DNA of 64,000 nt. Source: Planctomycetota bacterium (GTDB lineage Bacteria > Planctomycetota > SZUA-567 > H5-PLA8). Location: the NCBI GenBank assembly GCA_038227875.1, contig JBBRPR010000017.1, positions 1 to 64,000 of the forward strand. Direction: 5' to 3'. Under the pieces are notes generated by a model. That model was not told the origin of the DNA and did not search any database. It saw only the letters and a list, made by a program, of their open reading frames with translations. Below are positions 3,580 through 57,904 of the stretch, piece after piece (within the stretch, counting starts at the first letter, position 1; every line of letters starts with the position of its first letter). Position numbers and translations under genes: made by a program.

Positions 3580-6500
3580 ATGCGCTGGATCAGCTGTGTT
3601 CTGCTCGGACTCTCACTCTTCGTTGGAATTGCAGCGCCAAGAGCTTTTGCGGAAGGTTGGGTCGAGCCTGACACAAGTGTGGATGTTGAGAGTGTATGGG
3701 CGTCCCCATCACTAGGGTACGACGGCAATACTAGCACCTATGCCAGCGACACCTCCAACCGTGCTGGTTACGGCGGGTATCTCGAACTCGATTTCAACAA
3801 CGCTATAACCTGTGGGCGATTAAGGATAAATGCTGATTTTGGATATAATATTGTCGATTCAGTACAAATTGATGTGTTTAAAGATGGGAGCTGGTCTAAT
3901 GTTTTGGATGGTTCAATTTCAGATGCAGCCTATTCTGAAATCACGTTCACTCCCGGACAAGTAACCAAGGCGCGGTTTCGCTACCACTATTTATCCGCGG
4001 GGTATTATTTCTGGTTATACAATATATCATTTTATGCTTCGCCTGAATTCATCATTGATCCCTCGGTACTTACCAAGAATCCGACCGATGTAGAGCAGAC
4101 CACCGTTGGCCTGCATGGCAAGATTGTTGACGATGGCGGCGCACCCTGCGAAACGCGGTTTCAATATGGAATTGATACTAATTACGGAACCAATACGGCC
4201 TGGACGAGCAGCTTCATCACGGATCAGACATTTGGTAAGATCGTCACCGGACTAACGAACGGGCAGACCTACCATTATCGAGTACAAGCCCGAAACAGCA
4301 CCGGCAATATCGTGAATGGCGCCGATGTTTCGTTTACGGCGGCGCCTCCGCAGATCGACAGTTGGGTTTCCCCGACTGGGTTCAGCGATCCCGATGATGT
4401 TTGGAGCGATGCTGAGAATGCGTTTGACGACGAGGACGCTTCGTATGCGCGTTCCTACCATAACATCTATGCCAATAACTGGGGCAGCTATCTTTATCTA
4501 ACGCATTCCGCGCTGAATTCTGATTGGATTCGGTTTAAAGCTCGTCAAGCCGGCAGTATTGACGCCGCAGAAGTCAGCGTGCTTTCAGGAGCGACCTGGA
4601 CCGTCGTGTATCAAGGCAGCTTCACCGATGCGGAATGGATGGAAGTGAATTTTCCGCAAGTCCAGGTAAGCCAGGCTCGCATTCGCTTCCACGTGGCCAA
4701 TAGCAACGAAGGGCTGTACTGGCAGCTCTACGAATTTGACTTTCACACAGCAGGATTACCGCGCGCGGCCGGATGGGTGCCGCCGACCTCGAATCAGAAT
4801 CCGGAAGGCCAGTGGGTCAATATCCCCAGCGCTTACGACGGCAACTTGGGTACGTATGCGTCAGATCAGTCCAACCGCGCGGGGTACGGCGCTTACGTTT
4901 ACTTCGGTTTGGATAATCCCATCCACTGCGGGCGGGTGCGCGTCGCAGCTGATTTTGGATATGGCGTGGTCGACTCCGTGCAGATTGATGTGCGGCGGGG
5001 TGGTGTGTGGACCTCAGTGCTCGACGGAACAATCAATGACGCGCAATACACGGAAGTAGCGTTTTCACCTGGAGACGTGGACGAGGCTCGATTCCGCTTC
5101 CACTACACCCAAGCAGGCTATTTTTTCTGGTGCTACGAATTCGCATTCTACGAATCGCCCGAAATCATCGTTCCTCCGATGCTCAGTACGTTGAACGCCT
5201 CGTCCGTGAGCGCTACCTCTGCAATTCTTCACGGCAAGATCTTGGACGATGGCGGCGCGCCGGTTCAATACCGGTTCGAATACGGAACCGACACGACCTA
5301 CGGCACCGATACTGCATGGACGGGCAGCTTGCAGAGCGGACGGATCTTCGGTCGCGCAGTATCCGGGTTGACCAATGGGCTCACGTATCACTTCCGCGTC
5401 CAGGCGCAGAATAGCGAAGGCACGATTGTCAACGGCAATGATCTGACGTTTACCACGGCGCCCGCTTCGCCCAACGCCTGGCTCCCGCCAACAGGTTTTG
5501 TAAACCCGACTGGATGGCAGGATATACCCAATGCCTTCGACGACGAACTAGACACTTTCGCCCGTGAAAACCATGCGCTCTACACAGATCAGTGGAGTGA
5601 CTACATTTATTACACAACGGATTCACTGAGTGTCGCCGGAATCCGCTTTATGGCGAAAGCAGATTCCTACATCGACCAAGCTGAAGTCGGACTTTCCAGC
5701 GACGGCACAAATTGGACGACGGTTTTCAGTGGATCGTTTAATGATCAGCAGTGGCAGACTATTGGATTTGGCGCAGTCACGGCCAGTCAGTTCAGAATAC
5801 GTTTTCACGTAAACACAACTGCTGTAGGCGAATACTGGCAAATTTATGAATTTAATTACACGGGCAATGCAGTGCTTGCTGGATCAAACATTCAGTCCAT
5901 CGTCGTGACTCCCTATCCGGTCGTGCAGCCCGCTTCTCCGATCATCGTCAATCCGTCTGGAATCCAACAATTTACCGCAGCGGCTTTCGATGGACTTGGC
6001 AATGCGATTGCGCCCCCTCCTACTTTCGACTGGACCGTAAGCGGTGGCGGAACCATCGATGTCACCGGACGATTTACTGCTGCCCCAATATCGAGTGCGG
6101 GACCATACGTTGTATCCGCAAGTTCAGGTGGCGTCTCTGGAACCGCCGTGATCAGTCGAATCAACGCGCCGCCCGTAATAACTGTAAATCCCACTGGGCA
6201 GTGGGACTCGCTGGATGGTGTTAATTTGGGTGTAACAGCTTCTGACGACGGTGGGGATTCGAATCTAATCTATGTTTGGAGCGTGGTCGGGTCGTCGCCC
6301 GGTGGCGCGAACTTTACCTCAAACAATTCAAATCAAGCCAAGAATTCCAAAGCATTACTGACTCAGGCGGGAACCTACCAATTCAGAATCACAATTTCTG
6401 ACGCGCAAGGCTTAAGTACCTTTGCGGATGTTACGGTGGATGTGCCTCAACGCGTTACCGGTGCAATCGCTTCGCCTTCAACGGTGATTCTGAATCCCAA

Positions 6501-8790
6501 TCAAATGCAGACCTTCATCGCGCTTCCGGCAGATCAATTCGGCAATCCGATTCCTGGCGATCCGCTAACAAGTGTTTTCTGGAGCGTGAGCGGGGGAGGA
6601 CAAATTGATTCGAATACGGGTGTCTTTACCGCTTCAGCAACGGCTCCTGTACCTAATGGTCCCTTTACGATCACAGGTTTAGTGGGTGAATTGCTTGCGA
6701 CGGCCACTATTATTCGAATCAACAAGTCGCCTACGGTTTCTAATATAAGTCCGGCAAATGGTGCATTTGTGAGTACCACACAGCCAGTCGTGTCTGCCAG
6801 CTATTTCGACCAGAATGGGATACTGACTGGATCCGTCCATTTGAAAATCGACAATGCCGTTGTCGGAGCAACCGTATCTACTACTGGCGTGACCTACTCC
6901 CCGACTTTGGATTTGGCCGAGGGAACGCACACGGTGGATTTGCACGTAGCTAGCCTCGACGGATTAACTACGGATAGGAACTGGTCGTTTGTAATAGACT
7001 CTATTGCGCCCACGGTGAGCGCTTTCGTCCCAGCGAACGGGAGTTTTGTTGGTACGTCGCAACCGATGATTACCGCGTCGATCTCCGATTTGCCGGGATC
7101 GGGCGTCGATGTTCAGGGCATTCGGGCTACGTTGGACGGACAGGATATTACCCAACAAAGCGTCATTACTGCACAGAGCTTCGCCTACCCGACACTTCCA
7201 CTGGGCGACGGCAATCACGTCGTAACGTTGAGCGTTCCGGATCTGGCTGGAAATATCGGTTACGGGACCACAGCGTTTACAATTCAGACCCAAGTTCCGC
7301 CAGCACCCGCAATTGAATTCACGCAGCAGACCGCGGGGCAGGTAGTTGTTTCGGGGCATGTTCCGCCGGGATTTAACATCAACGGCCTAGTTGCGATAGT
7401 GACTTCGTCCTCCCCCGGAACCGTTGCGGATGTGCAACCGCAAACAACGGTGCAGGGCGATCAATTTCAGGCCACTTTCGACCCTCTGAACGGCGCAACG
7501 AATTTCAATGCTTCACTTGCATTCAGCTACGCATCCAATCTAACGGGCCCTTCGACTCCAACGGGTAAATTGAATTTCACAGCCAGTCCGCCTGGCGATC
7601 CGACTAACCTGTTGCCGACAGTTCCGATTGTCTCCGTCACAATTAGTTCAGAAAGTCTAACTGGAGACAAGACTGGCACGAACAATGGCGAGCAGGTCTC
7701 CTTTACAAAGAACACTTCTGTCGACGTCAAGGTTAGCGCTAATGCGTCCATCGGGACGATTAGCACAATTATCGTTTACGGTGGCACGAACGCAGTCGTC
7801 CAACCGTGGAGTTCGACCGGTCCGATGACAGTGACACTTCCCTTTCCTGTGGAGGGCCGGTTTGAAATTACGGCCGTAGCCATTGCAGGCAATGCCGGAC
7901 AAACGACGGAGGGCGTTTCTAAGCCCGCCGTGCTCGTTGTCGACCGTACACCCCCGGCAGTAACATTTTCGAATCCGACTGCGTTGGTGACGGCGCCATA
8001 TGGCTATTTGATCTTGAACGGCCGTTCGGAGGGGGCGAATCAGGCGATTCGCGGTGATGCTGTGCTGCCGCGCAATGTCTACAGCCGAGACGGCATGGAA
8101 TTAAAGGGTGACGCCAGCGATACGCTTTCCGATGTCAGCGTCATGAACGCCGATATATACCAGACTGACGCAGCCCCCGGAGACGACGCTACCGGCTTTG
8201 ACTACAACGTTGCAGAGGCGGCAAACGTTCCGGGCCTCATCAATCAGGGCGCGCTACGCGACGGTATCGAAGTAGCCATCACGCAGGCGGCAACCGCAGC
8301 ACAACCACATCATGTCACGTTTGACAAGATTGGCGCAACAGCCGATTTGGCGGATTCGGTAGTGTATGACACTCAGACAGGCCAAATAACCAGCAACAAA
8401 GTCTATTTGCTCACGGTTACGGCGACAGATAAAGCTGGAAATCAAGGTGTGCAGAACATCTGGACTAAGGTTCTAACCCAAGTGCCCAAAGGCAAGGTCA
8501 CGGCAATTGGTAATCATTGGAATGATGATAACACTCCAACTCCGCCGTCAGTAGGTGGAAACGGAACCATGGACGCTTGGGCCTGTCGCTCATCGCCGGC
8601 ATTGTACTCGCCTAAACGTCCCTCTGGCCATTTTTTCCGGCCATCGCCTACATCCGCCGCGTCTGAGCCAGCACCATTCTATCCGCTTTGGGACGGCGTG
8701 GAGTCCGTGGGCGACTACGCCAAGAAAGTGAATCTCCCGCCGACGAAAACGCTCGATCTCGGCAACGGCGTGAAACTTGACTGGTGTTGA
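3580..8790 (+). CDS. Large secreted multi-domain protein (duplicated discoidin-like/FN3-like modules plus several Ig-like domains); C-terminus runs into an FGE-like remnant
   Basis: SD GGAGG before ATG 3580; signal peptide MRWISCVLLGLSLFVGIAAPRAFA; FN3-like LHGKIxDDGGAP..RFxYG..YH(Y/F)RVQAxN twice; Ig-like D-AGN strands. Confidence 0.8.
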   Translation: MRWISCVLLGLSLFVGIAAPRAFAEGWVEPDTSVDVESVWASPSLGYDGNTSTYASDTSNRAGYGGYLELDFNNAITCGRLRINADFGYNIVDSVQIDVFKDGSWSNVLDGSISDAAYSEITFTPGQVTKARFRYHYLSAGYYFWLYNISFYASPEFIIDPSVLTKNPTDVEQTTVGLHGKIVDDGGAPCETRFQYGIDTNYGTNTAWTSSFITDQTFGKIVTGLTNGQTYHYRVQARNSTGNIVNGADVSFTAAPPQIDSWVSPTGFSDPDDVWSDAENAFDDEDASYARSYHNIYANNWGSYLYLTHSALNSDWIRFKARQAGSIDAAEVSVLSGATWTVVYQGSFTDAEWMEVNFPQVQVSQARIRFHVANSNEGLYWQLYEFDFHTAGLPRAAGWVPPTSNQNPEGQWVNIPSAYDGNLGTYASDQSNRAGYGAYVYFGLDNPIHCGRVRVAADFGYGVVDSVQIDVRRGGVWTSVLDGTINDAQYTEVAFSPGDVDEARFRFHYTQAGYFFWCYEFAFYESPEIIVPPMLSTLNASSVSATSAILHGKILDDGGAPVQYRFEYGTDTTYGTDTAWTGSLQSGRIFGRAVSGLTNGLTYHFRVQAQNSEGTIVNGNDLTFTTAPASPNAWLPPTGFVNPTGWQDIPNAFDDELDTFARENHALYTDQWSDYIYYTTDSLSVAGIRFMAKADSYIDQAEVGLSSDGTNWTTVFSGSFNDQQWQTIGFGAVTASQFRIRFHVNTTAVGEYWQIYEFNYTGNAVLAGSNIQSIVVTPYPVVQPASPIIVNPSGIQQFTAAAFDGLGNAIAPPPTFDWTVSGGGTIDVTGRFTAAPISSAGPYVVSASSGGVSGTAVISRINAPPVITVNPTGQWDSLDGVNLGVTASDDGGDSNLIYVWSVVGSSPGGANFTSNNSNQAKNSKALLTQAGTYQFRITISDAQGLSTFADVTVDVPQRVTGAIASPSTVILNPNQMQTFIALPADQFGNPIPGDPLTSVFWSVSGGGQIDSNTGVFTASATAPVPNGPFTITGLVGELLATATIIRINKSPTVSNISPANGAFVSTTQPVVSASYFDQNGILTGSVHLKIDNAVVGATVSTTGVTYSPTLDLAEGTHTVDLHVASLDGLTTDRNWSFVIDSIAPTVSAFVPANGSFVGTSQPMITASISDLPGSGVDVQGIRATLDGQDITQQSVITAQSFAYPTLPLGDGNHVVTLSVPDLAGNIGYGTTAFTIQTQVPPAPAIEFTQQTAGQVVVSGHVPPGFNINGLVAIVTSSSPGTVADVQPQTTVQGDQFQATFDPLNGATNFNASLAFSYASNLTGPSTPTGKLNFTASPPGDPTNLLPTVPIVSVTISSESLTGDKTGTNNGEQVSFTKNTSVDVKVSANASIGTISTIIVYGGTNAVVQPWSSTGPMTVTLPFPVEGRFEITAVAIAGNAGQTTEGVSKPAVLVVDRTPPAVTFSNPTALVTAPYGYLILNGRSEGANQAIRGDAVLPRNVYSRDGMELKGDASDTLSDVSVMNADIYQTDAAPGDDATGFDYNVAEAANVPGLINQGALRDGIEVAITQAATAAQPHHVTFDKIGATADLADSVVYDTQTGQITSNKVYLLTVTATDKAGNQGVQNIWTKVLTQVPKGKVTAIGNHWNDDNTPTPPSVGGNGTMDAWACRSSPALYSPKRPSGHFFRPSPTSAASEPAPFYPLWDGVESVGDYAKKVNLPPTKTLDLGNGVKLDWC
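3658..5862 (+). repeat. Internal tandem duplication (two units of ~370 aa) within the large secreted protein
   Basis: TYASDTSNRAGYG / TYASDQSNRAGYG, DSVQIDV twice, HGKIVDDGGAP / HGKILDDGGAP, AFDDED / AFDDEL. Confidence 0.8.
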
Positions 8791-44242: not shown

Positions 44243-46285
44243 TCAGAATTCGTCCTTCTGGGGTTTCACGTCCGCGTTGTCCTGCGCCTTGGGAGCGTGC
44301 AGGTAGCGGATCATGCCGGCCGCCATTTCCTGGGTAAACGGATTGGAACTGGTGCTCCGTTTGGTCCAGCGCTCCTCCGCCATTTTCAAGGCCTCGGGTG
44401 CGGGTTGTTGTTCAGAGAGCAGTTTCGCCTGATCTTCGTCGAGCAGCGTGTCGTCCACTGTAAACCGCACGCCCAGGACCAGGTCACTTCCCGCCATTTT
44501 GCGAATGGCGTCGGGCATGGTTTCGGGCAAATCCAATTTGTAACCCAGCTTCGCCGTGACGATGCGTTTGTGATGGATCACGACGCCGCGTTCCACGTCG
44601 ACACTCACTTCCTCATCGCTCTGCCCGGTCAGCGATTTTGGCGCCAGCGTCAGCATCGTGGCTCCGATGTTCACGGATTCCTCAGGCAAAAGTTCGGGAT
44701 TCAGCGTGATGGGCGTCGGCCGCGATTTTAAAGTTGCGATCAGCCGGCCTTTCACGATCTCCAGATTTTCCAGCGTGTACTGAATGGGAAAATGGTATTT
44801 CTGCTGCAGCGATACGTCTGTTTGCCACGAATCGTTCACTGCGCGGGGCATGCCGCCGGTTGAACTGAACGGTGCCAGGCCGATATCGTTGAGCAGCAGA
44901 AAGCCGAGACCCACCTGGCCGAGCGTGAGCGTCGCGTTATCGAGTCCGGGAGACAAGACTTTGAATTGATGCGTGTCCGCGTCTTTCGTCGAGGCTACGC
45001 GGGTTGAACCGTCCGGGCGCCAGGTAATCCGGCATCCTGGCATCTTCGATTGGTCGTCGATCGAGTACGCGAAGAGATTCATCGGCGCGCGCGGCGCTTT
45101 GTCGACTTGGACGTTGTAATGGTTTGCGTTAAAGGCCTTGATACACGCGAATTTGAACGTCAGCTCGCCCTTGACCTTCGGCATCTCAGCCGGCGCTGCC
45201 GTGGTCACTTCATAAATCTGGCAGTCCGACATGTCGGGGATCAGGCCATCGATCACCGCCATAATTGGCGGCCGATCCGTGGTCGTTGTCTCTGTCAGGC
45301 GCTCATAGAGCAGCCGCCCTTTCAAAACCTGCGGACCAAAGCTGACGGTTTTCGGAATGACGAGCGGCAACGGTGCCGGCGCGGCCCCATTCGGCCCGTC
45401 CTTGTCTCCGTGCGTGACCGGAGCGCTTTCACCCGCGGCCAACTTCATCGTGACAGGCACTCCAATCAGTGCTGAAATGAGAAGTACGGCTGCGACGACT
45501 TTGATTTTCATCCAGAACAAGGCCTTCATCGTTCCCTCCGCAAGAGTTTTTGCACCCAACGTCGCTGTCGCGCCCGCCGTTCCGAGGCAGGCCGCGTGGA
45601 GGGAGGCGACAAAGTGCGGCGGCGCCGCGTGCGTGGCGTGATGTTCCAGCGCCAGTGCCAGAATCGCCGCCGGAACGGACGTTCCGGTCCCGGCGAAGCG
45701 CTGACGCAAGCGGTTGATCGCGCGCGACACGCGCGCCGAAAGAGTTCCGACCGGGCAGCCGAGCTCCTTGGCCGCTTCCGGTTCGGTCTTGCCCGCAAGG
45801 TAGCGCAGCACCACCGCGTCCCGCTCGGCTGATGGCAGAGCGTTAAGCAAGGTGTCGAGCTGCGGCTTCAACGTCTGCCAGACTTCGCTTTCGCCAGCCG
45901 CCTCTTGAATTTTCGCCCGCATCGCTGCTGCCTCCTGCTCATGCCTGGTACGCGTCCGACGCTCCCGGTTGGCGCGTTGCGCCACGTACACAGCCGTCCG
46001 GTAAAACCACGCGGAAAGCGGGGTATCCGGCCGGAGCGACGCGGCTTTCTGCGTGAAGACCAGGAACACGGCTTGTCCCGCGTCGTCGGCCAGATGCGGA
46101 TCGCCGACGATGCGCAGGCACGTGGCGTAGACCAGATCCGCGTGGCGCTGGATGATCTCCTGCAGCGCCTGCGGATCACGGTTCTTCGCATACTGTGCCA
46201 GCAGACTCGACATGTACGGCTCCCGACGCGAACTGACACGATTGGGCGGTTGAGCAGTTGTTGCGAGCACGTTGATCGCCTCCAT
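44243..46285 (-). CDS. ECF sigma-70 factor with TM segment and large extracytoplasmic C-terminal extension (planctomycete type); start uncertain
   Basis: RHADLVYATCLRIVGD..ADDAGQAVF, LSAWFY, ERDAVVLRYL..LGCPVGTLSARVSRA, TM VAAVLLISALIGV. Confidence 0.85.
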   Translation of the reverse strand: MEAINVLATTAQPPNRVSSRREPYMSSLLAQYAKNRDPQALQEIIQRHADLVYATCLRIVGDPHLADDAGQAVFLVFTQKAASLRPDTPLSAWFYRTAVYVAQRANRERRTRTRHEQEAAAMRAKIQEAAGESEVWQTLKPQLDTLLNALPSAERDAVVLRYLAGKTEPEAAKELGCPVGTLSARVSRAINRLRQRFAGTGTSVPAAILALALEHHATHAAPPHFVASLHAACLGTAGATATLGAKTLAEGTMKALFWMKIKVVAAVLLISALIGVPVTMKLAAGESAPVTHGDKDGPNGAAPAPLPLVIPKTVSFGPQVLKGRLLYERLTETTTTDRPPIMAVIDGLIPDMSDCQIYEVTTAAPAEMPKVKGELTFKFACIKAFNANHYNVQVDKAPRAPMNLFAYSIDDQSKMPGCRITWRPDGSTRVASTKDADTHQFKVLSPGLDNATLTLGQVGLGFLLLNDIGLAPFSSTGGMPRAVNDSWQTDVSLQQKYHFPIQYTLENLEIVKGRLIATLKSRPTPITLNPELLPEESVNIGATMLTLAPKSLTGQSDEEVSVDVERGVVIHHKRIVTAKLGYKLDLPETMPDAIRKMAGSDLVLGVRFTVDDTLLDEDQAKLLSEQQPAPEALKMAEERWTKRSTSSNPFTQEMAAGMIRYLHAPKAQDNADVKPQKDEF

Positions 46286-46401
46286 CCTACCCTCATATCC
46301 CTGCTCGCGGCAGCACCCCTGCGGGAAAAGCGCGGAAAAATGAAAAAGCACGGATTTGATCCGTGCTAAGCGAAGGGCCATAAGTGGTGAATCTGCGGGC
46401 G

Positions 46402-48057: not shown

Positions 48058-49365
48058 ATGCTGGGCGATGTCGTTCAGGAATTACGGTGGCGCGGGTTGT
48101 TGCAGCAGATGACCGACGAGACGCTCGAGAAGCGTCTGCTCCAGAATCCATTTACGCTCTACGCCGGTTTCGACCCGACGGCCGACAGCCTCGCGGCGCA
48201 TCACATGATTCCGCTGCTCAATCTCGCCCGCTTCCAGCGCGCCGGGCACAAGCCCATCGCGGTGGTCGGCGGCGGCACGGGGTTCATCGGCGATCCGTCG
48301 GGCAAAACTGAAGAGCGCCAGTTGCTCACCGCGGAGCAGCTTGAGGCCAACGTCGCCGGTCAGCGCAAGCAGATGGAGCGCTTCCTGGATTTCACGCCCG
48401 GTACGGCGCAGGCCTCCGTGCTGAACAACGCCGATTGGCTCTGCGGCATGAACCTGATCACGTACCTGCGCGACGTCGGCAAGCATTTCACGGTCAACTC
48501 GATGCTGGAGAAAGATTCCGTCCGCCGGCGCCTGGAAGATCGCGCACAGGGCATCAGCTACACGGAATTCAGCTACATGCTGCTGCAGGCGTACGATTTT
48601 TATCACCTCTTCAAGCACCACGGGTGCCGGCTGCAGATTGGCGGCAGCGATCAATTCGGCAACATCACCGCCGGCTGCGAATTGATCCGCCGCCGTCGTC
48701 CCGAAACCGAGGCGCATGAGACGTGGGGCGCATACGGTTTGACCACGACCCTGATTACCGATTCCAACGGCGAGAAAATCGGCAAGACCACGAAAGGCGC
48801 GCTGTGGCTGGATCCGAACAAGACGACGCCGTTCGATTTCTACCAGTACTGGATCAACACCAGCGACGCCGACGCCATCAAGTACGTCCGTTACTTCACC
48901 GACGTGAACGAAGCCGACGCGCAAGCCGGCGAGGCCGATCACGCCAAGGACCCGGGCAAGCGTTTGCTGCAGAAGAAGCTCGCCCGCTTCATGACGGAGC
49001 TGGTTCACGGCGTGACGGAACGGGAGAACGCACAGAAGATGACCGACGATCTTTTTACCAAGTCGGTAAAAGACCTCGACGAAGCTGCGCTCTTGAACCT
49101 TGTGAAAGATGCTTCGAGTTCGACACTCTCGCGATCGCGGTTGGAAGGCGAAGGGATGCCAATTATCGAGTTGCTTGCAGAAGCTACCAAACTGTGGGCA
49201 TCAAAGGGCGAGGCGAAGAAGTCGATTCAAGGCAACGGAGCGAATCTCAACGACGTTCGAGTGACTGATCTTCAGAAAAAAGTGACGACGGCTGAGCTGC
49301 TCCATGGCAAGTACTTGGTGCTGCGGAAGGGGAAGAAAGACAATCATCTGGTGAAGGTGGAATGA
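48058..49365 (+). CDS. tyrS: Tyrosine--tRNA ligase
   Basis: YAGFDPTADSL, GDPSGK, EFSYMLLQAYD, QIGGSDQFGNI, KIGKT, S4-like LRKGKK. Confidence 0.97.
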   Translation: MLGDVVQELRWRGLLQQMTDETLEKRLLQNPFTLYAGFDPTADSLAAHHMIPLLNLARFQRAGHKPIAVVGGGTGFIGDPSGKTEERQLLTAEQLEANVAGQRKQMERFLDFTPGTAQASVLNNADWLCGMNLITYLRDVGKHFTVNSMLEKDSVRRRLEDRAQGISYTEFSYMLLQAYDFYHLFKHHGCRLQIGGSDQFGNITAGCELIRRRRPETEAHETWGAYGLTTTLITDSNGEKIGKTTKGALWLDPNKTTPFDFYQYWINTSDADAIKYVRYFTDVNEADAQAGEADHAKDPGKRLLQKKLARFMTELVHGVTERENAQKMTDDLFTKSVKDLDEAALLNLVKDASSSTLSRSRLEGEGMPIIELLAEATKLWASKGEAKKSIQGNGANLNDVRVTDLQKKVTTAELLHGKYLVLRKGKKDNHLVKVE

Positions 49366-49395
49366 ACGATTAGCTGGTCATATCAAGCCGACGGG

Positions 49396-49436
49396 ACTTC
49401 GTCGGGAGCGACGCCAATCACGGCTCCCGACGAAGT
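49396..49436. terminator. 14-bp hairpin after tyrS (terminator or REP-like)
   Basis: ACTTCGTCGGGAGC ... GCTCCCGACGAAGT, with only a short T tail. Confidence 0.55.
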
Positions 49437-49518
49437 TTAAAATAATTCATAATCTTCCGTCACATTTCGATCCCACTGCATCTTGAGTCTGAGTGAATGA
49501 GAGAGGTGTGGAGGAAAA

Positions 49519-50781
49519 ATGTCGCTCAACGAATGGCTGGAGTCGGCTCGCGGCGGAAATCTCGACGCCTTTGAACGGCTCATGGATGCGACGCAAGGCA
49601 TGGTCTATGCCGTCGTGCGCCGCATTCTGATCGACCGTGAAGACGCGGCGGATGCCGTTCAGGAGACCTACGTCCGGGCGTTTGGAAAGCTGTCGGAGAT
49701 TCGGAATCCAGACTCCTTTCCGGGATGGCTCAGGCGTATCGCGGTGACGACTGCGATGGGTCTCCAGCGTTCTCGCCGTAACCACTTTGTTGAGTTCGAC
49801 GACGATCTGCACATTCCCATTCTGGACGATCAGGAAACACGCTGGAGCGAATTTCAGCACGCGGCGATGGCAGAAGCCATCGTCAAGCTCGGCGAGAGCG
49901 ACCGGCTGCTGTGTGAACGCTTTTATCACGGCGGCTGGCCCCTGGCGCGACTGGCGGAAGATCTGGAAATTTCGGAAAGCGCCGTGCGCAAACGCCTCCA
50001 GCGCATCCGCGAACACTTGCGAAAGGATATTGAAATGAACGAACAACGAACACTGGCCGGCGAACACCTGCCAGGAAATCTGCCGCGGAAAGTGATTGAG
50101 CTGCTGGCCCGTCCCCGGCTCACCACCATTCCGGAAAATCCGGTGGGCCGCATCTGGCATCTAATCCAATCGCACCTGCCCAAGTCCGTGGACATGGACG
50201 TTTCGGAAACGGTGACCGACGAGCAAGTGCGGGAGATGCTCGGCGACTTATATGACGCCGGTTCTGACATCGGAGGGGGGCAGGGCATTCATCGCGTCGA
50301 CGACGCGCAACACCTCCGCGCCGAAATCACGCTGCCGTTGCTGCTGGCGTGCCGCGGGCGCAGCGGGCCTCAGTCGATCGTGAGCGCTGGGAAAGTCTAC
50401 CGGATTGCGAAAGTCGGACCCGCTCACATGGAATCCTTTCATCAAGGCGAATGGCTGAACGTTAGCGAGTCGGCCTCGCTCTGGGACTCGATGGGCCTGA
50501 TCAGCGGAATGATCAAGGGGCTCTATCCCGACAAGGCGATCCGCTGGGAGAAAGTTCAGCTTCCTCTGTGCGAGGAAGCGTGGGAACTCTTTGTGGACTG
50601 GAACGGCAAGTACGTCGCGGTGCTGGGGTGCGGCCGCTACAAGGATCGGATCGTGGAGTACCTCGGCAACGATCCCCGTCGATTTACCGCTATCGGCGCG
50701 GGCTTCGGTTTGGAGCGCATGGCCTGCGCTCACTTCGGGATCGATGACATTCGCAAGGTGGAGGGAATCCGGCTGAGTTGA
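49519..50781 (+). CDS. ECF sigma-70 factor fused to a PheRS-alpha-like (class IIc aaRS) catalytic domain
   Basis: aa 1-172: DAADAVQETYVRAF, FPGWLRRIA, LAEDLEISESAVRKRLQRIR. C-terminus: GKVYR..H..FHQGE, VLGCG, GFGLERMA..FGIDDIR. Confidence 0.85.
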   Translation: MSLNEWLESARGGNLDAFERLMDATQGMVYAVVRRILIDREDAADAVQETYVRAFGKLSEIRNPDSFPGWLRRIAVTTAMGLQRSRRNHFVEFDDDLHIPILDDQETRWSEFQHAAMAEAIVKLGESDRLLCERFYHGGWPLARLAEDLEISESAVRKRLQRIREHLRKDIEMNEQRTLAGEHLPGNLPRKVIELLARPRLTTIPENPVGRIWHLIQSHLPKSVDMDVSETVTDEQVREMLGDLYDAGSDIGGGQGIHRVDDAQHLRAEITLPLLLACRGRSGPQSIVSAGKVYRIAKVGPAHMESFHQGEWLNVSESASLWDSMGLISGMIKGLYPDKAIRWEKVQLPLCEEAWELFVDWNGKYVAVLGCGRYKDRIVEYLGNDPRRFTAIGAGFGLERMACAHFGIDDIRKVEGIRLS

Positions 50782-50826: not shown

Positions 50827-51267
50827 TCATCCCGCCAACTTCGTGCGAAATTCCTTCGGCGTGTAGAACTGGTGCGACTTCTCGTCGAGCAGCGTGGCAC
50901 CAAACTGCTCAAATATCTGCACGTACAGCCGGTAAAAAATGCGCTGTTCCGCGCCGCTGCGGGCGTTGATGGTGATGACTTCGCCGGGCTTCGGCGGTCC
51001 TTGCTCGAGATGCACTTTCAGGACCACGCCGCCTTCGACTTCCCAGAGCAGTTTGACGTTGCTGTCGGTGGCCGCCTGATCCCATGGCGCAGCCGGGATT
51101 TTGGTCATGTGCGGAACTTCCATCAGCTTCTCGGTAACGGAGTTCAGTGAGCCGAGCGAATGAAGTTCGATGGGCAGAATGGTGGTGTCTTTGGGTGGTA
51201 TGGGATCGGGTTTCCAGAACGAAAACTGCGCGATCTCTGAATTGTGACTGGAATGATTGTCTGACAC
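50827..51267 (-). CDS. Hypothetical protein
   Basis: SD AAGGAGG before GTG; GC3-biased 146-aa ORF. Confidence 0.75.
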   Translation of the reverse strand: MSDNHSSHNSEIAQFSFWKPDPIPPKDTTILPIELHSLGSLNSVTEKLMEVPHMTKIPAAPWDQAATDSNVKLLWEVEGGVVLKVHLEQGPPKPGEVITINARSGAEQRIFYRLYVQIFEQFGATLLDEKSHQFYTPKEFRTKLAG

Positions 51268-53941: not shown

Positions 53942-56900
53942 ATGATTCGCGGCAGCAAATCCCCCTTCGTAAATTACTGTAAGTGGATTCCGGTCACCGC
54001 CTTAAGCTGCTTTCTCGGCGGCACCATCGCCACCTCCGTTCATGCCGAACAGGACTTTGAATACGCCAAGCTGCTCGTTGAGCGTGACGAACAAAGTTTC
54101 CCGACCGACGACATCATCGGACGGCTGATCACCAAGCTGCTGGAAACGCCGAGCACGCAGTTGGAAGGCAAGCTGATCAAGGCCACCTTCCTGCGCCATC
54201 AGGCCGCGACCTCCAGCTCTGAAAAGAAGAACAAGCTGCTGACGGAAGCCAACGACCTCTATAAAGAGGTGCTTGCCGGCGACAAGAAGTTCCGCCTGAT
54301 GTCCGTCGCCGAACGCGATGCGGCGAGCATGACGTCGGAAATGATCCGCGCCCAGATCGACCTGGCCGGCAACGACAAGGTTAAGGCCCGCGAACTCCGC
54401 GCCCAGGCGGCGAGCAACCAGGAAATCATCGCCAACGCGCAGAAGACGAACATCGACGCGGCCGAACCGAAATTCGTCGCCGAATTCACCAAGTACACTG
54501 AATACGTCAAGACGCACACGGATCAGGAATCCGGCGAAGTCAAGCCGCCGTATCCCAACGGGCAGATGGACGCCCTGATGAAGACGTTCGACGAATGGAT
54601 CATCGCCGACAAACGCTACGTCGCCGCGAAGGTCGAACAGATCAACTGCTACGACGACTCCGATCCCGCGAAGAAAGCCGCGGCCGAAGTGATGGCCAAG
54701 TACTGCGACGAAAAGATCAACAACGAAAAGCTCGCCGACTTCCCCGTGATCACGTCGTGGTACTCGTTCATGCAGGGCCGCATTTACGGGCTCGTCGGCG
54801 ATGACGAAAAAGCCAGCGCATCGTGGGGCACGGCGCTCGGGCTGGAAATGCAGCATCTCAATGACGACCAGCGCAAGCAGATGTTCCAGCTCAAGAAGTT
54901 CATCATTCACGATTTGATCAAGATGAACATGAAGGGCAAGAAGTACGCCGCGGTCGAAGAATACATTGCCACCTCGCTGATCGATCCCGTGCTGCGCACG
55001 CTCTTCGACGACGATTCCGGCAAGGACCTGCTGATCGACTACTCCAAGGCGCTGACGTTCAAGGATGGCGCCGACCAGTCGGACGTCGAAAAGGCGATCA
55101 AGAAGCTGCGCGAGCAGATCGAAAAGGAAAAGGGCGTCAACTCCGTCTGGGCGGCGCGCTTCTCCCGCGCGATGGCCGAAGTCCTCGACTACGCCCGCAG
55201 CCACAAGGGCATGATGCCCCGCCTCAGCGGCCAGGAATGGTACGACGCCGCGCGCGGCTTCTTCGTGATGGGCCAGACCGAACATCAGAAGTACGTCGAA
55301 ATGGAACGCGACGCCAAGGGCGATCCGAAGAACAAGGAGCAGTTCGAAAAGGCGTACACGGAATTCCAGAACGCCGTCGACTTCTACCGCCGCGCCGTCA
55401 CCGCTGCGCGGTCGGCCGATCTCCTTACCCGCGTCACCGTCGAACCGAAGGCCTGGTTCGAAATGGGACTGTGTTACCTGAAGATGCGCCATTACTACGA
55501 AGCGATCGTGGTCTACCAGGCGATGCGCAATACGTTCCTGCCGGAATTCCGCGGCAAGTTGCTCCCTGAGCCCACCAGCGCCGACTACAAGAAGTTCGTC
55601 ACCAAGGCCGTCAAAGACGCCATTGAAGAATTGGACAAGCCCAAGGACGGCCTGATCGCCAAGTCCGGCTCGAACGTGCTTTACGCGTTCGAAGAAAACA
55701 AGAAGCTCCACAATGGCGCCGGCGACATGTGGAACAAGGCGCTGCAGGGCAAGGTGCTCTCGACCGACACCAGCCTGATCAAGGACAGCGGCATCTCCGA
55801 CATCGCCTACACCCAGGCGCGCACGACGATGGACGAAGCCAAGAGCTTCTCGGACAACGGCAAGTTCAATGCCAAGGACGCGAAGCTCTCCGAGGACGCG
55901 TACGGCCAGGCGCTGACCAAGTACACTGCCGCTGCCGAGAAATTCCTGAAGGTGGCGCCGACTTCCGACGCCTACGAAATCGCACTCTTCCAGGCTGGCT
56001 GCTGCTACAACTACGCGCAGGGCATCTGGTCCGACAAACTTCCCAGCCGCCGTGCCGACGCGGAAGCCGCGATCAAGGATCTCGGCGCCAAGGGCGTGGC
56101 CGCGTTCGACAAGTACATGGAGTACGTCGCCAAGAACGCCGCCAAAAAGGACGAAGACAAGGACCGCCGCAAGAAACTCGAAGGCGAAGTGTTGCTGGTC
56201 CGCAATGCGTTGAGCTTCGGCATGCAGGACTGGCCGATGACGCTGAAGACCGCCGACGAATACCTGAACTGGGAAAAGGATAATCCCACCAACAGCAAGA
56301 AGGACGCGGCGATGCTGAATAAGTTCGTCGCGCTGATCTCGCTGGCCGCGCAGAACTTCGCGCCGAAGTCCGATCAGTTCCTGAAGGACGCCGAAGCGGT
56401 GATGCGCGACGTCCGCGTCATGAAGCCCAAGGACAACAAGCTCTTCCGCACCATGCTCGACCAGCTCGGCCGGCGCTACAACATCGCCGCCTTCCAGGTC
56501 GACAAATTCCTGAAGGAAAATCACACCGACGTCACCACCGACATGCAGGACCTGTACGAAGACAAGGTCGCTGAAATCCAGCTGGAACGCGTCACGGTGG
56601 TGGAAGAAGAAGCCAACCCCAACGAAGAAGTCTCGCTGGAAGATTACAGCCGCCTGGTCTACCTCTTCGACAAAGCCAGCCACCGCGTGAAGGACCGCGA
56701 GAAGGCCACGTCGATGCAGGAGAAGTCGGCCGAAATGGCCAAGAAGCTGCTCGACAAGTACGACCCGACGAAGAAGAACCTGCGCATTCCGGAAGACAAG
56801 GACGCCTGGCAGCCGCTGCTGAACAGAATGATCGGTGACAACCAGACCGTACGCGGCCTGCTGCGCATCCAGGAAGACTTCAAGGGCGACGTCAACCGCC

Positions 56901-57904
56901 GCGATCAGTGCAAACGCGACCACTCCACGCTGATCGACTACATGTACGACACCGTGCCGCAGGACACGCCGGCCGACAAGCGCCCGGACTACGACAAGCA
57001 GAAGACCGATTTGGAAAAGGCACGCCAGCAGCTCAAGACGATCCGCGATAATTACCCGAACATCCCGACGCTGGCCGATAAGGCCGGCAATGTCAGCGCC
57101 GCCGCGGCTGCGGTCGTCACCGACTGGATCGATGCGGTAAAAGAAAAGTATCCGGATCTCGAGCAGCTCAAGCCGAAGAAGGGCGAACCGGCCAAGGCGC
57201 CGCTGCAGATCATTGAAGAAGAAATCGATTTCCGCCGCAAGATCGAAGCCACCCGCGACCTGCTCTCGCGCCAGTCGCTGGAACTGGCCGAAAAGTACGC
57301 CAAGGGCGGCAACAACGACAGCGCCAAGAAGTTCCGCGAAATCGCCAGCGAGCAGATCAAGATCCTCGGCGACCTGCGCGGCGATACCCCGGTCATGATG
57401 GAACAGACCGCCGAACTGGACATGGCCGACGGCAAGTACAAGGAAGCCGAAGAGACGCTGTGGAAGATTGCCGACAACGCCGACAAGGATTCGGATACAT
57501 ACTTCCGCGCCAAGCGCAAGCTCTCCGAAATCTTCGCCAACCAGAAGAAGTGGCGCGAAGCGGCGGAGTTCCCGGAATACATCGCGCTGGTCGTCGGCGT
57601 CAAGGGCAACCGCCCCAAGCGCCTGTGGCCGGACATGGCCTCGTTCCTGGAAGAATGCTACAAGAACGGCGCACCGCGTCCCGCCGCGCTGAAACTCGAT
57701 GGGTCCGACGACGTCAAGGACGTGAAGAAGGACGACGTGAAGAAAGACGACGTCAAGAAGGATGAACCCAAGGCCGACGCGCCGAAGGCGGACGCACCGA
57801 AGACCGACGAGAAGAAAGCCGACGAACCCAAGGCCGAAGAGAAAAAGGCCGACGAGAAGAAACCGGAAGAGAAGAAAGCTGACGAACCGAAGACGGACAA
57901 GTAA
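53942..57904 (+). CDS. Large secreted helical-repeat (TPR-like) protein with charged repetitive tail
   Basis: Signal peptide, AWFEMGLCYLKMRHYYEAI and ALFQAGCCY TPR-like helices, KKDDV/KADEP tail. Confidence 0.8.
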   Translation: MIRGSKSPFVNYCKWIPVTALSCFLGGTIATSVHAEQDFEYAKLLVERDEQSFPTDDIIGRLITKLLETPSTQLEGKLIKATFLRHQAATSSSEKKNKLLTEANDLYKEVLAGDKKFRLMSVAERDAASMTSEMIRAQIDLAGNDKVKARELRAQAASNQEIIANAQKTNIDAAEPKFVAEFTKYTEYVKTHTDQESGEVKPPYPNGQMDALMKTFDEWIIADKRYVAAKVEQINCYDDSDPAKKAAAEVMAKYCDEKINNEKLADFPVITSWYSFMQGRIYGLVGDDEKASASWGTALGLEMQHLNDDQRKQMFQLKKFIIHDLIKMNMKGKKYAAVEEYIATSLIDPVLRTLFDDDSGKDLLIDYSKALTFKDGADQSDVEKAIKKLREQIEKEKGVNSVWAARFSRAMAEVLDYARSHKGMMPRLSGQEWYDAARGFFVMGQTEHQKYVEMERDAKGDPKNKEQFEKAYTEFQNAVDFYRRAVTAARSADLLTRVTVEPKAWFEMGLCYLKMRHYYEAIVVYQAMRNTFLPEFRGKLLPEPTSADYKKFVTKAVKDAIEELDKPKDGLIAKSGSNVLYAFEENKKLHNGAGDMWNKALQGKVLSTDTSLIKDSGISDIAYTQARTTMDEAKSFSDNGKFNAKDAKLSEDAYGQALTKYTAAAEKFLKVAPTSDAYEIALFQAGCCYNYAQGIWSDKLPSRRADAEAAIKDLGAKGVAAFDKYMEYVAKNAAKKDEDKDRRKKLEGEVLLVRNALSFGMQDWPMTLKTADEYLNWEKDNPTNSKKDAAMLNKFVALISLAAQNFAPKSDQFLKDAEAVMRDVRVMKPKDNKLFRTMLDQLGRRYNIAAFQVDKFLKENHTDVTTDMQDLYEDKVAEIQLERVTVVEEEANPNEEVSLEDYSRLVYLFDKASHRVKDREKATSMQEKSAEMAKKLLDKYDPTKKNLRIPEDKDAWQPLLNRMIGDNQTVRGLLRIQEDFKGDVNRRDQCKRDHSTLIDYMYDTVPQDTPADKRPDYDKQKTDLEKARQQLKTIRDNYPNIPTLADKAGNVSAAAAAVVTDWIDAVKEKYPDLEQLKPKKGEPAKAPLQIIEEEIDFRRKIEATRDLLSRQSLELAEKYAKGGNNDSAKKFREIASEQIKILGDLRGDTPVMMEQTAELDMADGKYKEAEETLWKIADNADKDSDTYFRAKRKLSEIFANQKKWREAAEFPEYIALVVGVKGNRPKRLWPDMASFLEECYKNGAPRPAALKLDGSDDVKDVKKDDVKKDDVKKDEPKADAPKADAPKTDEKKADEPKAEEKKADEKKPEEKKADEPKTDK

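What the first reader, a model, noticed from the sequence alone, without database searches (positions are those of the whole stretch)
50560..50730. Pocket substitutions in the PheRS-like domain hint at tyrosine or another para-substituted ligand
Seen: FTAIGAGFGLER aligned by eye to E. coli PheS YSGFAFGMGMER puts Gly (codon 50695-50697) at the Ala294 position, and FPFT becomes LPLC. Known: A294G enlarges the PheRS pocket to accept para-substituted phenylalanines. IGAGFGLER and IHRVDDAQHLR also resemble PylRS (WIGAGFGLER; IFRVDKNFCLR), while FHQxE and GIDDIR are PheRS-like, so the domain may be a distinct class IIc branch. Inference: given that tyrS is adjacent, Tyr is a plausible ligand.
Basis: partly seen in the sequence, partly recalled or inferred. 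Interest (0 to 1): 0.7.

Follow-up and report, generated by a model that had tools for sequence, protein, structure and literature searches.

The report
Sigma factor with remodelled PheRS-like pocket

Summary
Observation confirmed. ORF 49519-50781(+) encodes a 420-aa ECF sigma factor fused to a PheS-like class II catalytic core. Aligned to E. coli K-12 PheS taken from a genome record, G393 (codon 50695-50697) lies opposite A294, C351 opposite T251, and L348/L350 opposite F248/F250. In 169 distinct family members the position is Gly in 155 and Ser in 13, and Cys351 is present in 167. The residues PheS uses for ATP and the alpha-amino group are nearly invariant. The HPAR loop and the N-terminal tRNA-binding arm are missing.

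The domain is PheS-derived by HMM and by fold, and the PylRS likeness is local. The tyrosine idea rests on tyrS adjacency. That adjacency is absent in 0 of 80 homologous loci, a strong hairpin separates the two genes, and the nearest relative carries a different gene in that slot. Many other pocket residues have also changed.

The best reading is a built-in ligand-sensing extension on a sigma factor that drives its own ECF41-like promoter (66 of 70 upstream regions). The ligand is unknown. This scan noted the same fusion earlier on other DNA (e1-1405742).

The parts
49519..50781 (+). Gene for a 420-aa ECF sigma factor fused to a PheS-like class II core (P0001).
   Evidence: ORF and translation. 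Pfam PF04542 (residues 22-80), PF04545/PF08281 (129-169) and PF01409 (267-414, 75.2 bits against a cut-off of 19.8).
49519..50073 (+). Sigma-2 and sigma-4 domains (residues 1-185).
   Evidence: Pfam. The PDB hits are ECF sigma factors (SigL 2.2e-09, SigW 3.3e-08).
50083..50778 (+). PheS-like catalytic core (residues 189-420), covering the regions of motifs 1, 2 and 3.
   Evidence: Alignment to E. coli PheS residues about 100-315. Fold match to 3pco_A at Z 25.4, rmsd 2.0 A over 213 residues (model 205-420).
50389..50451 (+). Motif 2, GKVYR...H...FHQGE (G291-E311). It holds the class II arginine R295 and the alpha-amino-binding pair Q309/E311.
   Evidence: R295 in 169/169, F307 in 168, Q309 in 168 and E311 in 167 of 169. 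They align to E. coli R195, F206, Q208 and E210.
50560..50571 (+). L348-P-L350-C351, aligned to E. coli F248-P-F250-T251.
   Evidence: Across the family: position 348 is Y in 145, F in 20 and L in 1; position 350 is M in 142 and L in 13; C351 is present in 167 of 169.
50689..50718 (+). Motif 3, AIGAGFGLER (A391-R400).
   Evidence: Aligned to E. coli G292-R301. G397, L398 and R400 are present in 167-168 of 169.
50695..50697 (+). Codon GGC for G393, the A294-equivalent position.
   Evidence: Sequence read. Mapping. G in 155, S in 13 and R in 1 of 169.
49459..49484 (+). ECF-type promoter-like site of the fusion gene: GTCACA, a 15-nt spacer, then ATCTT.
   Evidence: The family motif GTCAC[AG]nT...TGTCyT with an invariant 16-nt spacing occurs in 66 of 70 upstream regions. 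The window copy deviates (G to A, spacer one base shorter), and the closest relative L001 has GCATCCT.
49394..49438 (+). Hairpin (16 bp stem, 13-nt loop) followed by TTTAAAATAATT. It is a likely tyrS terminator that separates tyrS from the fusion gene.
   Evidence: -32.8 kcal/mol, z -4.9, 0 of 200 shuffles folded as well.
48058..49365 (+). tyrS, the housekeeping tyrosyl-tRNA synthetase. It is a neighbour and not part of the system.
   Evidence: Pfam PF00579 at 3.8e-74. It is the only copy found in the genome.

Best explanation
The region encodes the side-chain pocket of a PheS-derived class II synthetase core that replaces PheS's N-terminal arm with an ECF sigma factor. The domain keeps the residues PheS uses to hold ATP (motif-2 Arg R295, motif-3 Arg R400, adenine-stacking F307) and the alpha-amino group of the amino acid (Q309, E311, T271). 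It has lost what a real PheRS needs to charge tRNA: the N-terminal coiled coil, the HPAR loop, the C-terminal tail, and any sign of a beta-subunit partner. Its specificity pocket is rebuilt: Gly at the A294 position, an invariant Cys at T251, Tyr/Phe and Met/Leu in place of the two Phe, and new invariant Trp residues.

Inferred, not shown: the domain binds an alpha-amino acid, probably with ATP and probably with a large hydrophobic or aromatic side chain. It would then act as a built-in regulatory extension that switches the sigma domains on or off, as the fused C-terminal domains of ECF41 and ECF238 sigma factors do. The sigma factor then transcribes its own gene from a conserved GTCACA-N16-GTCyT promoter. 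The identity of the ligand cannot be read from the sequence, and tyrosine is no better supported than phenylalanine, methionine, tryptophan or a non-protein amino acid.
For: Shown:
- Domain architecture.
- The family is large and conserved. 929 proteins reached E<=1e-3 among 8000 scored, and all 120 listed carry PF01409+PF04542 at 415-435 aa. It occurs in Acidobacteriota, Phycisphaerae, Polyangiaceae, Steroidobacteraceae and Latescibacterota.
- ATP- and amino-group-binding positions are nearly invariant in 169 distinct members: R267 168, R295 169, F307 168, H308 167, Q309 168, E311 167, R400 168. They are mapped onto E. coli PheS.
- Pocket positions are conserved but differ from PheS: C351 167/169, W355 167/169, G393 155/169.
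- HPAR is present in 17 of 17 PheS and 0 of 39 fusion domains, and no PF02912 N-terminal domain was found.
- The fusion always sits beside a canonical pheS, in the window's genome and in 5 of 5 other genomes tested.
- No conserved anti-sigma or other neighbour was found in 80 loci.
- An autoregulatory ECF-type promoter occurs in 66 of 70 upstream regions with invariant spacing, and the unconstrained G before TCAC is present in 65 of 65. It resembles the ECF41 signature TGTCACA-n16-CGTC (PMC3426412, passages).

By analogy: ECF41 and ECF238 extensions are described as ligand-dependent conformational switches (PMC8999054, passages).

Weak support: docking of the sigma part (1-180) against the PheS-like part (189-420) scored 0.35, against 0.00 for the best of 3 controls. 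The mark was reached by 116 of 157 solved complexes and 2 of 215 mismatched pairs. At 0.60 or under it was reached by only 18 of those 157, and by both mismatches that passed. The runs agree in at least 67% of contacts and the partner's pLDDT is at least 82.
Against: - No binding or activity has been measured, and the ligand is unknown.
- I had no model coordinates, so pocket volume and the actual neighbours of G393 are inferred from alignment only.
- Full conservation of both catalytic arginines fits an active adenylate-forming enzyme better than a pure sensor. From memory, the HisRS-like sensor HisZ has lost catalytic residues.
- No target promoter other than the gene's own was detectable. 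The strict motif occurs once per genome in 5 of 5 genomes. With one mismatch there were 65 matches against 54 for the reversed control. A sensor with no visible regulon is odd.
- The window's own promoter copy deviates from the consensus (one search scored it far below the training sites).
- The complex prediction is only a weak pass.
- P0001 is an outlier in the pocket (L348 in 1 of 169, W312 in 1 of 169, C371 in 7 of 169). Family-level inference may therefore not transfer fully to this copy.
Confidence: 0.5

Rival explanations
1. The PheS-like domain is an active enzyme. It activates an amino acid with ATP and transfers it to some acceptor other than tRNA-Phe, such as a protein, a small molecule or itself. 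The sigma part mainly serves to autoregulate production of that enzyme.
For: Both class II catalytic arginines and the FHQxE amino-group site are invariant across phyla. The only detectable target of the sigma factor is its own gene. Other stand-alone PheS paralogues annotated as ligases exist (NCBIfam NF051887, 'PheS-related mystery ligase SrmL'). From memory, class II core paralogues such as EpmA/PoxA and AsnA are enzymes.
Against: No acceptor or partner gene is conserved nearby. The HPAR loop, conserved in 17 of 17 PheS, is deleted in 0 of 39. The domain scores 62.5 bits against the SrmL cut-off of 300. No precedent for an enzyme tethered to a sigma factor turned up in my literature searches.
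Confidence: 0.2
2. The domain is a tyrosine sensor, or a sensor of a para-substituted phenylalanine, functionally linked to the adjacent tyrS.
For: Gly at the A294 position. [quoted passage not shown]
Against: - tyrS is absent from 0 of 80 homologous loci.
- A strong hairpin and the gene's own promoter lie between tyrS and the fusion gene.
- The closest relative examined has another gene in the slot.
- tyrS is single-copy.
- The fusion was not found in 40 related genomes, all 37 with a hit showing only a canonical PheS-level match.
- Many other pocket residues have changed.
- No new hydroxyl-binding residue is evident.
Confidence: 0.06
3. The domain senses uncharged tRNA, as the HisRS-like domain of Gcn2 does, and couples amino-acid starvation to transcription.
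For: This is an aaRS-like core fused to a signalling output. The analogy to Gcn2 is from memory, with no call behind it.
Against: The parts of PheRS that hold tRNA are missing: the N-terminal coiled coil (no PF02912) and the beta subunit. The HPAR loop is deleted. Conservation is concentrated on small-molecule-binding positions.
Confidence: 0.08
4. The domain is a ligand-free scaffold, for dimerisation or for docking on another protein such as PheT, and the active-site conservation is a structural relic.
For: Class II cores are dimerisation modules (established knowledge). In PheRS the alpha core pairs with a catalytic-like module of beta (recalled).
Against: Relics drift, yet here R295 is present in 169/169 and R400, Q309 and F307 in 168/169 across at least five phyla. 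The branch separating the family from PheS is long (2.5 changes per site), so retention of exactly these positions implies selection.
Confidence: 0.1

Closest known systems
Bacterial phenylalanyl-tRNA synthetase alpha subunit (PheS; PF01409, TIGR00468; E. coli 3PCO)
   Same: The fold matches (Z 25.4, rmsd 2.0 A over 213 residues, 23% identity). Motif 2 GxVYR...FHQxE, motif 3 GxGxER and the C-terminal GIDDIR are shared. The ATP- and alpha-amino-binding residues are conserved.
   Different: The domain scores 77.9 bits against an equivalog cut-off of 237. The N-terminal coiled coil is replaced by a sigma factor. The HPAR loop and the C-terminal tail are absent. The pocket reads [YF]x[ML]C...A[VI]G[VA]G instead of FPFT...GFAFG. 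A genuine pheS is present elsewhere in the same genomes.
E. coli PheS A294G and T251G/A294G relaxed-specificity mutants
   Same: Gly at the A294-equivalent position, conserved in 155 of 169 members. The known effect is room for para substituents (PMC3275996).
   Different: This is a natural, old family with many further pocket changes, including Cys rather than Gly at T251 and loss of one or both Phe that stack on the ring. The single-mutant phenotype cannot be transferred. 13 of 169 members have Ser at the position.
Pyrrolysyl-tRNA synthetase catalytic domain (class IIc)
   Same: The nine-residue string IGAGFGLER and the pattern hRVDxxxxLR occur in both (M. mazei PylRS as printed in bioRxiv 10.1101/2021.06.22.449487). 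Both have Gly at the same motif-3 position, and both are class IIc folds (Z about 20).
   Different: Identity is lower (14-19% against 21-25% for PheRS) and Z is lower. No PylS model appeared among the NCBIfam hits at E<=1, and no PylRS chain among the 23 PDB sequence hits. Motif 2 is FHQxE as in PheS. The exact nine-residue match is peculiar to this copy and a few relatives.
ECF sigma factors with fused C-terminal regulatory extensions (ECF41 SnoaL-like, ECF238 CorE Cys-rich, ECF42 TPR)
   Same: The same sigma2-sigma4 core plus a C-terminal domain, with no conserved anti-sigma neighbour. The promoter has a -35 GTCACA and a -10 GTC at a 16-nt spacing, like the ECF41 signature TGTCACA-n16-CGTC.
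   Different: The extension is an aminoacyl-tRNA-synthetase core. Neither the main text of the ECF reclassification (PMC7826278) nor a 2022 review (PMC8999054) mentions one. The target here is the sigma gene itself, not a neighbouring COE gene.
SrmL, 'PheS-related mystery ligase' (NCBIfam NF051887)
   Same: It is another non-canonical PheS paralogue, and it is the second-best NCBIfam hit for the domain (62.5 bits).
   Different: The score is far below the cut-off of 300, and only positions 95-227 of 349 match. SrmL is not a sigma fusion.

Membership tests
Class II aaRS core of the PheRS type (Pfam PF01409 tRNA-synt_2d) | Match to the Pfam model above its gathering score. | tested here: met
   75.2 bits against a cut-off of 19.8, residues 267-414.
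Class II aaRS core of the PheRS type (Pfam PF01409 tRNA-synt_2d) | Class II motif-2 and motif-3 arginines and the antiparallel-sheet fold. | tested here: met
   R295 and R400 align to E. coli R195 and R301. Fold match Z 25.4 to 3pco_A.
Functional PheRS alpha subunit (NCBIfam TIGR00468 pheS equivalog) | Score at or above the equivalog cut-off. | tested here: not met
   77.9 bits against 237.45.
Functional PheRS alpha subunit (NCBIfam TIGR00468 pheS equivalog) | N-terminal tRNA-binding coiled coil (PF02912) and the HPAR loop. | tested here: not met
   No PF02912 hit. HPAR is present in 17 of 17 PheS and 0 of 39 fusion domains. The loop is a gap in 157-164 of 169.
Functional PheRS alpha subunit (NCBIfam TIGR00468 pheS equivalog) | Phe-specific pocket FPFT ... 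GFAFG (E. coli F248, F250, T251, A294). | tested here: not met
   LPLC ... AIGAG in the window, [YF]x[ML]C ... A[VI]G[VA]G in the family.
Pyrrolysyl-tRNA synthetase | Overall sequence or profile similarity to PylS beyond short motifs. | tested here: inconclusive
   No PylS model among the NCBIfam hits at E<=1 and no PylRS among 23 PDB sequence hits. PylRS chains reach Z about 20 with 14-19% identity, below PheRS. The local motifs do match. No tree with PylRS could be made.
ECF (group 4) sigma-70 factors | Sigma-2 and sigma-4 regions only, with similarity to known ECF sigmas. | tested here: met
   PF04542 and PF04545/PF08281. TIGR02937 sigma70-ECF at 81.7 bits against a cut-off of 42.9. PDB hits SigL, SigW and SigE.
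ECF41 group | SnoaL-like C-terminal extension, neighbouring COE target gene, and promoter TGTCACA-n16-CGTC. | tested here: not met
   The extension is PF01409 and not SnoaL. No conserved neighbour was found. Only the promoter resembles ECF41.
SrmL (NF051887) | Score at or above the equivalog cut-off. | tested here: not met
   62.5 bits against 300.

The most novel reading that the evidence does not exclude
The PheS-like domain still activates or tightly binds a non-phenylalanine amino acid with ATP, and this event gates a sigma factor whose only promoter is its own. The protein would then be a self-contained, amino-acid-responsive positive-feedback switch, or a self-inducing ligase, built from a tRNA synthetase core. 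That would be a new class of one-component sigma regulator, spread by transfer among soil and aquatic phyla.
Probability: 0.2. Interest if true: 0.8.

Novelty: new variant of a known kind. Interest (0 to 1): 0.5.

Why it matters
Sigma factors with fused sensor domains are the least understood way of controlling ECF sigma factors, and synthetase-like domains that have taken on sensing or new ligase roles are few. This family joins the two. It is widespread, it keeps exactly the residues needed to hold ATP and an amino acid, and its side-chain pocket is rebuilt around a conserved Gly/Cys pair. It also has a clean, conserved promoter that would serve as a ready reporter. A ligand screen and an in vitro transcription assay are therefore directly feasible. 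They could reveal how bacteria wire amino-acid or metabolite status straight into RNA polymerase. For the specific claim under review, the useful result is negative: the neighbouring tyrS should not be used to guess the ligand.

Tried and rejected
- Gene neighbourhood as a clue to the ligand. I clustered 807 ORFs from 80 loci. Apart from the fusion itself (61 loci), the largest clusters were an apparent antisense-ORF artefact (25 loci), ABC-type permeases (17 loci), and a ligase/helicase pair confined to one clade (8-9 loci). Nothing was linked to amino-acid metabolism.
- Regulon prediction. The strict promoter pattern hit only the fusion's own promoter in 5 of 5 genomes. With one mismatch there were 65 matches against 54 reversed-pattern controls, and the genes downstream of 25 such sites showed no recurring family. 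A PWM scan of the window's own genome gave 29 core matches, about what chance predicts, none scoring like the training sites.
- PylRS likeness by sequence search. A 43-aa motif-3 query against the PDB returned PheRS, SepRS and AspRS chains at E<=10 but no PylRS. The PylRS motifs were confirmed only from a sequence printed in a preprint. I did not feed that sequence to any tool, so there is no alignment or tree with PylRS or SepRS.
- Stand-alone forms. Hits of 244-344 aa with PF01409 only are mostly on contigs under 4 kb. Several begin inside the sigma-4 helix or the linker (P0141, P0132, P0143). I read these as truncated calls or possible split genes, and could not inspect their contigs.
- Horizontal-transfer signal by composition. 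GC is 0.60 for the gene against 0.58 for the window, which is no anomaly.
- Literature searches found no paper with 'ECF' + 'sigma' + 'tRNA-synt_2d' or 'sigma factor' + 'PheRS-like'. One unrelated review held 'ECF sigma factor' + 'C-terminal extension' + 'tRNA synthetase'. Five unrelated papers came up for the sigma-70 / aaRS / paralog / fused / PheS query. I did not read the supplements of the ECF reclassification paper, and they may list this group.
Full report
**What is at the coordinates.** The window carries tyrS at 48058-49365(+). It is followed by a 420-aa ORF at 49519-50781(+) and a convergent 146-aa ORF at 50827-51267(-). Pfam finds an ECF-type sigma factor in the 420-aa protein P0001: Sigma70_r2 at residues 22-80 and region 4 at 129-169. 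It also finds a tRNA-synt_2d domain (the PheRS-type class II core) at residues 267-414, 75.2 bits against a gathering score of 19.8. The finding's interval 50560-50730 covers residues 348-404, which is the strand carrying LPLC through to motif 3. Codon 50695-50697 is GGC, encoding Gly393.

**Check of the alignment.**
- A phmmer search of the C-terminal 233 residues against all PDB chains returned 23 sequences at E<=1. All are PheRS alpha or mitochondrial PheRS, with the best at 1.2e-15 and E. coli 3pco_A at 2.6e-14.
- The printed alignments place 'taigagfgler' under E. coli 'sgfafgmgmer' and 'lplceeawel' under 'fpftepsaev', at high posterior probability.
- I translated E. coli K-12 pheS from NC_000913 and the genome's own canonical pheS from contig C23, and aligned both with 15 family members.
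- The residue map is A294<->G393, T251<->C351, F248<->L348, F250<->L350, Q208<->Q309, E210<->E311, R195<->R295, R301<->R400, S171<->T271 and F206<->F307.
- The AlphaFold2 model built from a 30-sequence alignment has mean pLDDT 82.9, and above 90 over most of residues 200-420. It superposes best on E. coli PheRS alpha bound to Phe and AMP: Z 25.4, rmsd 2.0 A, 213 residues, 23% identity.

**Conservation.** A search of 5.8 billion proteins gave 929 hits at E<=1e-3 among 8000 scored. The 120 listed all combine PF01409 with PF04542, are 415-435 aa long, and are at most 50% identical to P0001. A genome scan found relatives in 80 loci (89 confirmed, 80 kept) from Acidobacteriota, Phycisphaerae, Polyangiaceae, Steroidobacteraceae and a Latescibacterota MAG. 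I aligned 169 distinct sequences: the 121 proteins plus 49 full-length ORFs from the loci, which is a biased sample of the 929 or more. The counts are:
- Position 393: Gly 155, Ser 13, Arg 1.
- C351: 167.
- W355: 167.
- Position 348: Tyr 145, Phe 20, Leu 1. The window protein is the only Leu.
- Position 350: Met 142, Leu 13.

The ATP and alpha-amino positions are essentially invariant: R267 168, R295 169, F307 168, H308 167, Q309 168, E311 167, R400 168. In 17 canonical PheS from four groups the motif-3 pattern with Ala at this position was found in 16, FP[FY]T in 15, and HPAR in 17. In 39 fusion domains these were found in 0, 0 and 0.

**What kind of class II core it is.**
- NCBIfam ranks bacterial pheS first (77.9 bits), then the PheS paralogue SrmL (62.5), archaeal pheS (41.1) and mitochondrial pheS (39.3). 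All are far under their cut-offs, and no PylS or SepS model appears at E<=1.
- Fold comparison ranks PheRS (Z 20-25, 21-25% identity) above SepRS (Z 20-21, 15-16%) and PylRS (Z about 20, 14-19%).
- A quick maximum-likelihood tree used 39 fusion domains against 17 bacterial PheS. The fusion rows were 36 chosen from the 169 plus 3 from a divergent subgroup. The tree puts the two sets on either side of one branch with SH-aLRT 100 and a length of about 2.5 changes per site. It is unrooted and has no PylRS, SepRS or archaeal rows.
The exact IGAGFGLER match is peculiar to this copy, because the family consensus is A[VI]G[VA]G[YF]GLER.

I conclude that the domain is a distinct, old paralogue of PheS type. 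Whether it branched inside bacterial PheS or earlier remains open.

**What has been lost and kept.** The alignment shows that the whole PheS core is represented, from the HP[LV] turn before motif 1 (here NPVG) to GIDDIR. Three parts are missing: the N-terminal coiled coil, which the sigma factor replaces; the HPAR loop, a gap in 157-164 of 169; and the last dozen residues. A genuine pheS exists in the same genome and in 5 of 5 other carriers tested. The domain is therefore not a PheRS. However, selection has kept the small-molecule site.

**The tyrosine inference.**
- A tblastn search with the window's TyrRS found no homologue in any of the 80 loci, each with up to 6 kb on either side of the fusion.
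- tyrS is the only copy found in this genome.
- Downstream of its stop lies a 16-bp hairpin followed by TTTAAAATAATT (-32.8 kcal/mol, z -4.9). The fusion gene's own promoter-like site follows.
- The fusion was not found in 40 related genomes: 16 of the same family, the rest of the same order or class, at 61-95% completeness, one of them (G022) unpublished. The full protein found nothing at E<=1e-20. The C-terminal domain alone found only single weak matches of PheS type.
- In G006, whose TyrRS is 74% identical, tyrS and the homologue of the 146-aa downstream ORF are in the same arrangement. Between them lies an unrelated 347-aa Gly/Asn/Pro-rich ORF.

The adjacency is thus an accident of a variable slot. 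Applying the A294G analogy alone is also unsafe. PMC3275996 (passages) describes recognition of the Phe ring by a network of aromatic contacts and invariant glycines. In this family those aromatic residues are changed, and new invariant Trp residues appear nearby. Nothing in the sequence singles out a para-hydroxyl.

**How it most likely works.**
- No anti-sigma factor or other neighbour is conserved.
- Upstream of 66 of 70 family genes lies GTCAC[AG]nT...TGTC[CT]T with an invariant 16-nt gap, 33-114 nt before the start codon. The G before TCAC, which my pattern did not require, is present in 65 of 65 distinct sites.
- The misses are L001, L018, L070 and the window. The window has GTCACA, a 15-nt gap, then ATCTT at 49459-49484, and L001 has the same GCATCyT variant.
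- The motif resembles the ECF41 signature TGTCACA-n16-CGTC (PMC3426412). ECF41 and ECF238 sigmas are controlled by fused C-terminal domains thought to change conformation on ligand binding (PMC8999054).
- A two-chain prediction of the sigma part against the PheS-like part gave weak support. The score was 0.35 against 0.00 for the best of 3 controls. The mark was reached by 116 of 157 solved complexes and 2 of 215 mismatches. At 0.60 or under it was reached by only 18 of the 157, and by both passing mismatches. The runs agree in at least 67% of contacts, and the partner's pLDDT is at least 82.

My best reading, at about even odds, is a built-in amino-acid/ATP-sensing extension on an autoregulated sigma factor.

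One fact counts against a simple sensor model. I could find no other target. The strict motif occurs once per genome in 5 of 5 genomes, and one-mismatch matches (65) do not exceed the reversed control (54). This leaves room for the rival in which the domain is itself the product that matters, an adenylate-forming enzyme that induces its own synthesis.

**Novelty.** None of my searches found a description of a sigma factor fused to a synthetase core. The main text of the ECF reclassification and a 2022 review do not contain 'tRNA' or 'synthetase'. I did not read their supplements. The architecture is therefore a new variant of ECF sigmas with regulatory extensions. The specific claim about tyrosine is not supported.

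Noticed in passing
window 49459-49484; loci L002-L077, upstream of each fusion gene: A highly conserved ECF-type promoter, GTCAC[AG]nT-N13-TGTC[CT]T, with an invariant 16-nt spacing between TCACx and GTC. It occurs in 66 of 70 upstream regions and resembles the ECF41 signature. In five genomes the strict pattern occurs only at the fusion's own gene.
   Followed up: partly
window 49394-49438: A strong hairpin (16 bp stem, 13-nt loop, -32.8 kcal/mol) with a T/A-rich tail lies directly after tyrS. It is a likely terminator. The consensus scan missed it because of the long loop.
   Followed up: yes
L131 (G006:C61) 5892-6935 compared with window 49519-50781: The slot between tyrS and the conserved 146-aa ORF is variable. 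The relative G006 has a 347-aa Gly/Asn/Pro-rich low-complexity ORF there instead of the sigma fusion. The fusion was not found in 40 related genomes, which suggests acquisition or patchy retention.
   Followed up: partly
P0001 residues 129-138 (window 49903-49932) and residue 351: The sigma-4 region carries an unusual invariant motif RxxCDRxYHGGW. C132 is invariant in 30 of 30 aligned members. With C351 it is one of only two invariant cysteines, one in each half of the protein. A redox or metal link between the halves is conceivable but untested.
   Followed up: no
proteins P0132, P0143 (245-246 aa) and P0141 (263 aa): PheS-like domains without a sigma part on contigs of 15-103 kb. They start in the linker or inside sigma-4. 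They may be split genes, frameshifts or miscalled starts, and I could not inspect the contigs.
   Followed up: partly
proteins P0145-P0148 (Polyangiaceae and others): A divergent subgroup of the fusion (about 34% identity) has Phe instead of the otherwise invariant W355 (YPMC[RS]R[AP]F) while keeping G393 and C351. It nests within the family tree.
   Followed up: partly
window 44243-46381 (-): A second sigma-like protein lies nearby: 712 aa, with Sigma70_r2 and r4 in residues 76-226 followed by about 480 residues with no Pfam match. By eye there is a hydrophobic stretch after the sigma part.
   Followed up: no
window 53942-57904 (+): A 1320-aa protein with only a faint TPR match and a Lys/Asp/Glu/Ala/Pro-rich repetitive C-terminal tail.
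   Followed up: no
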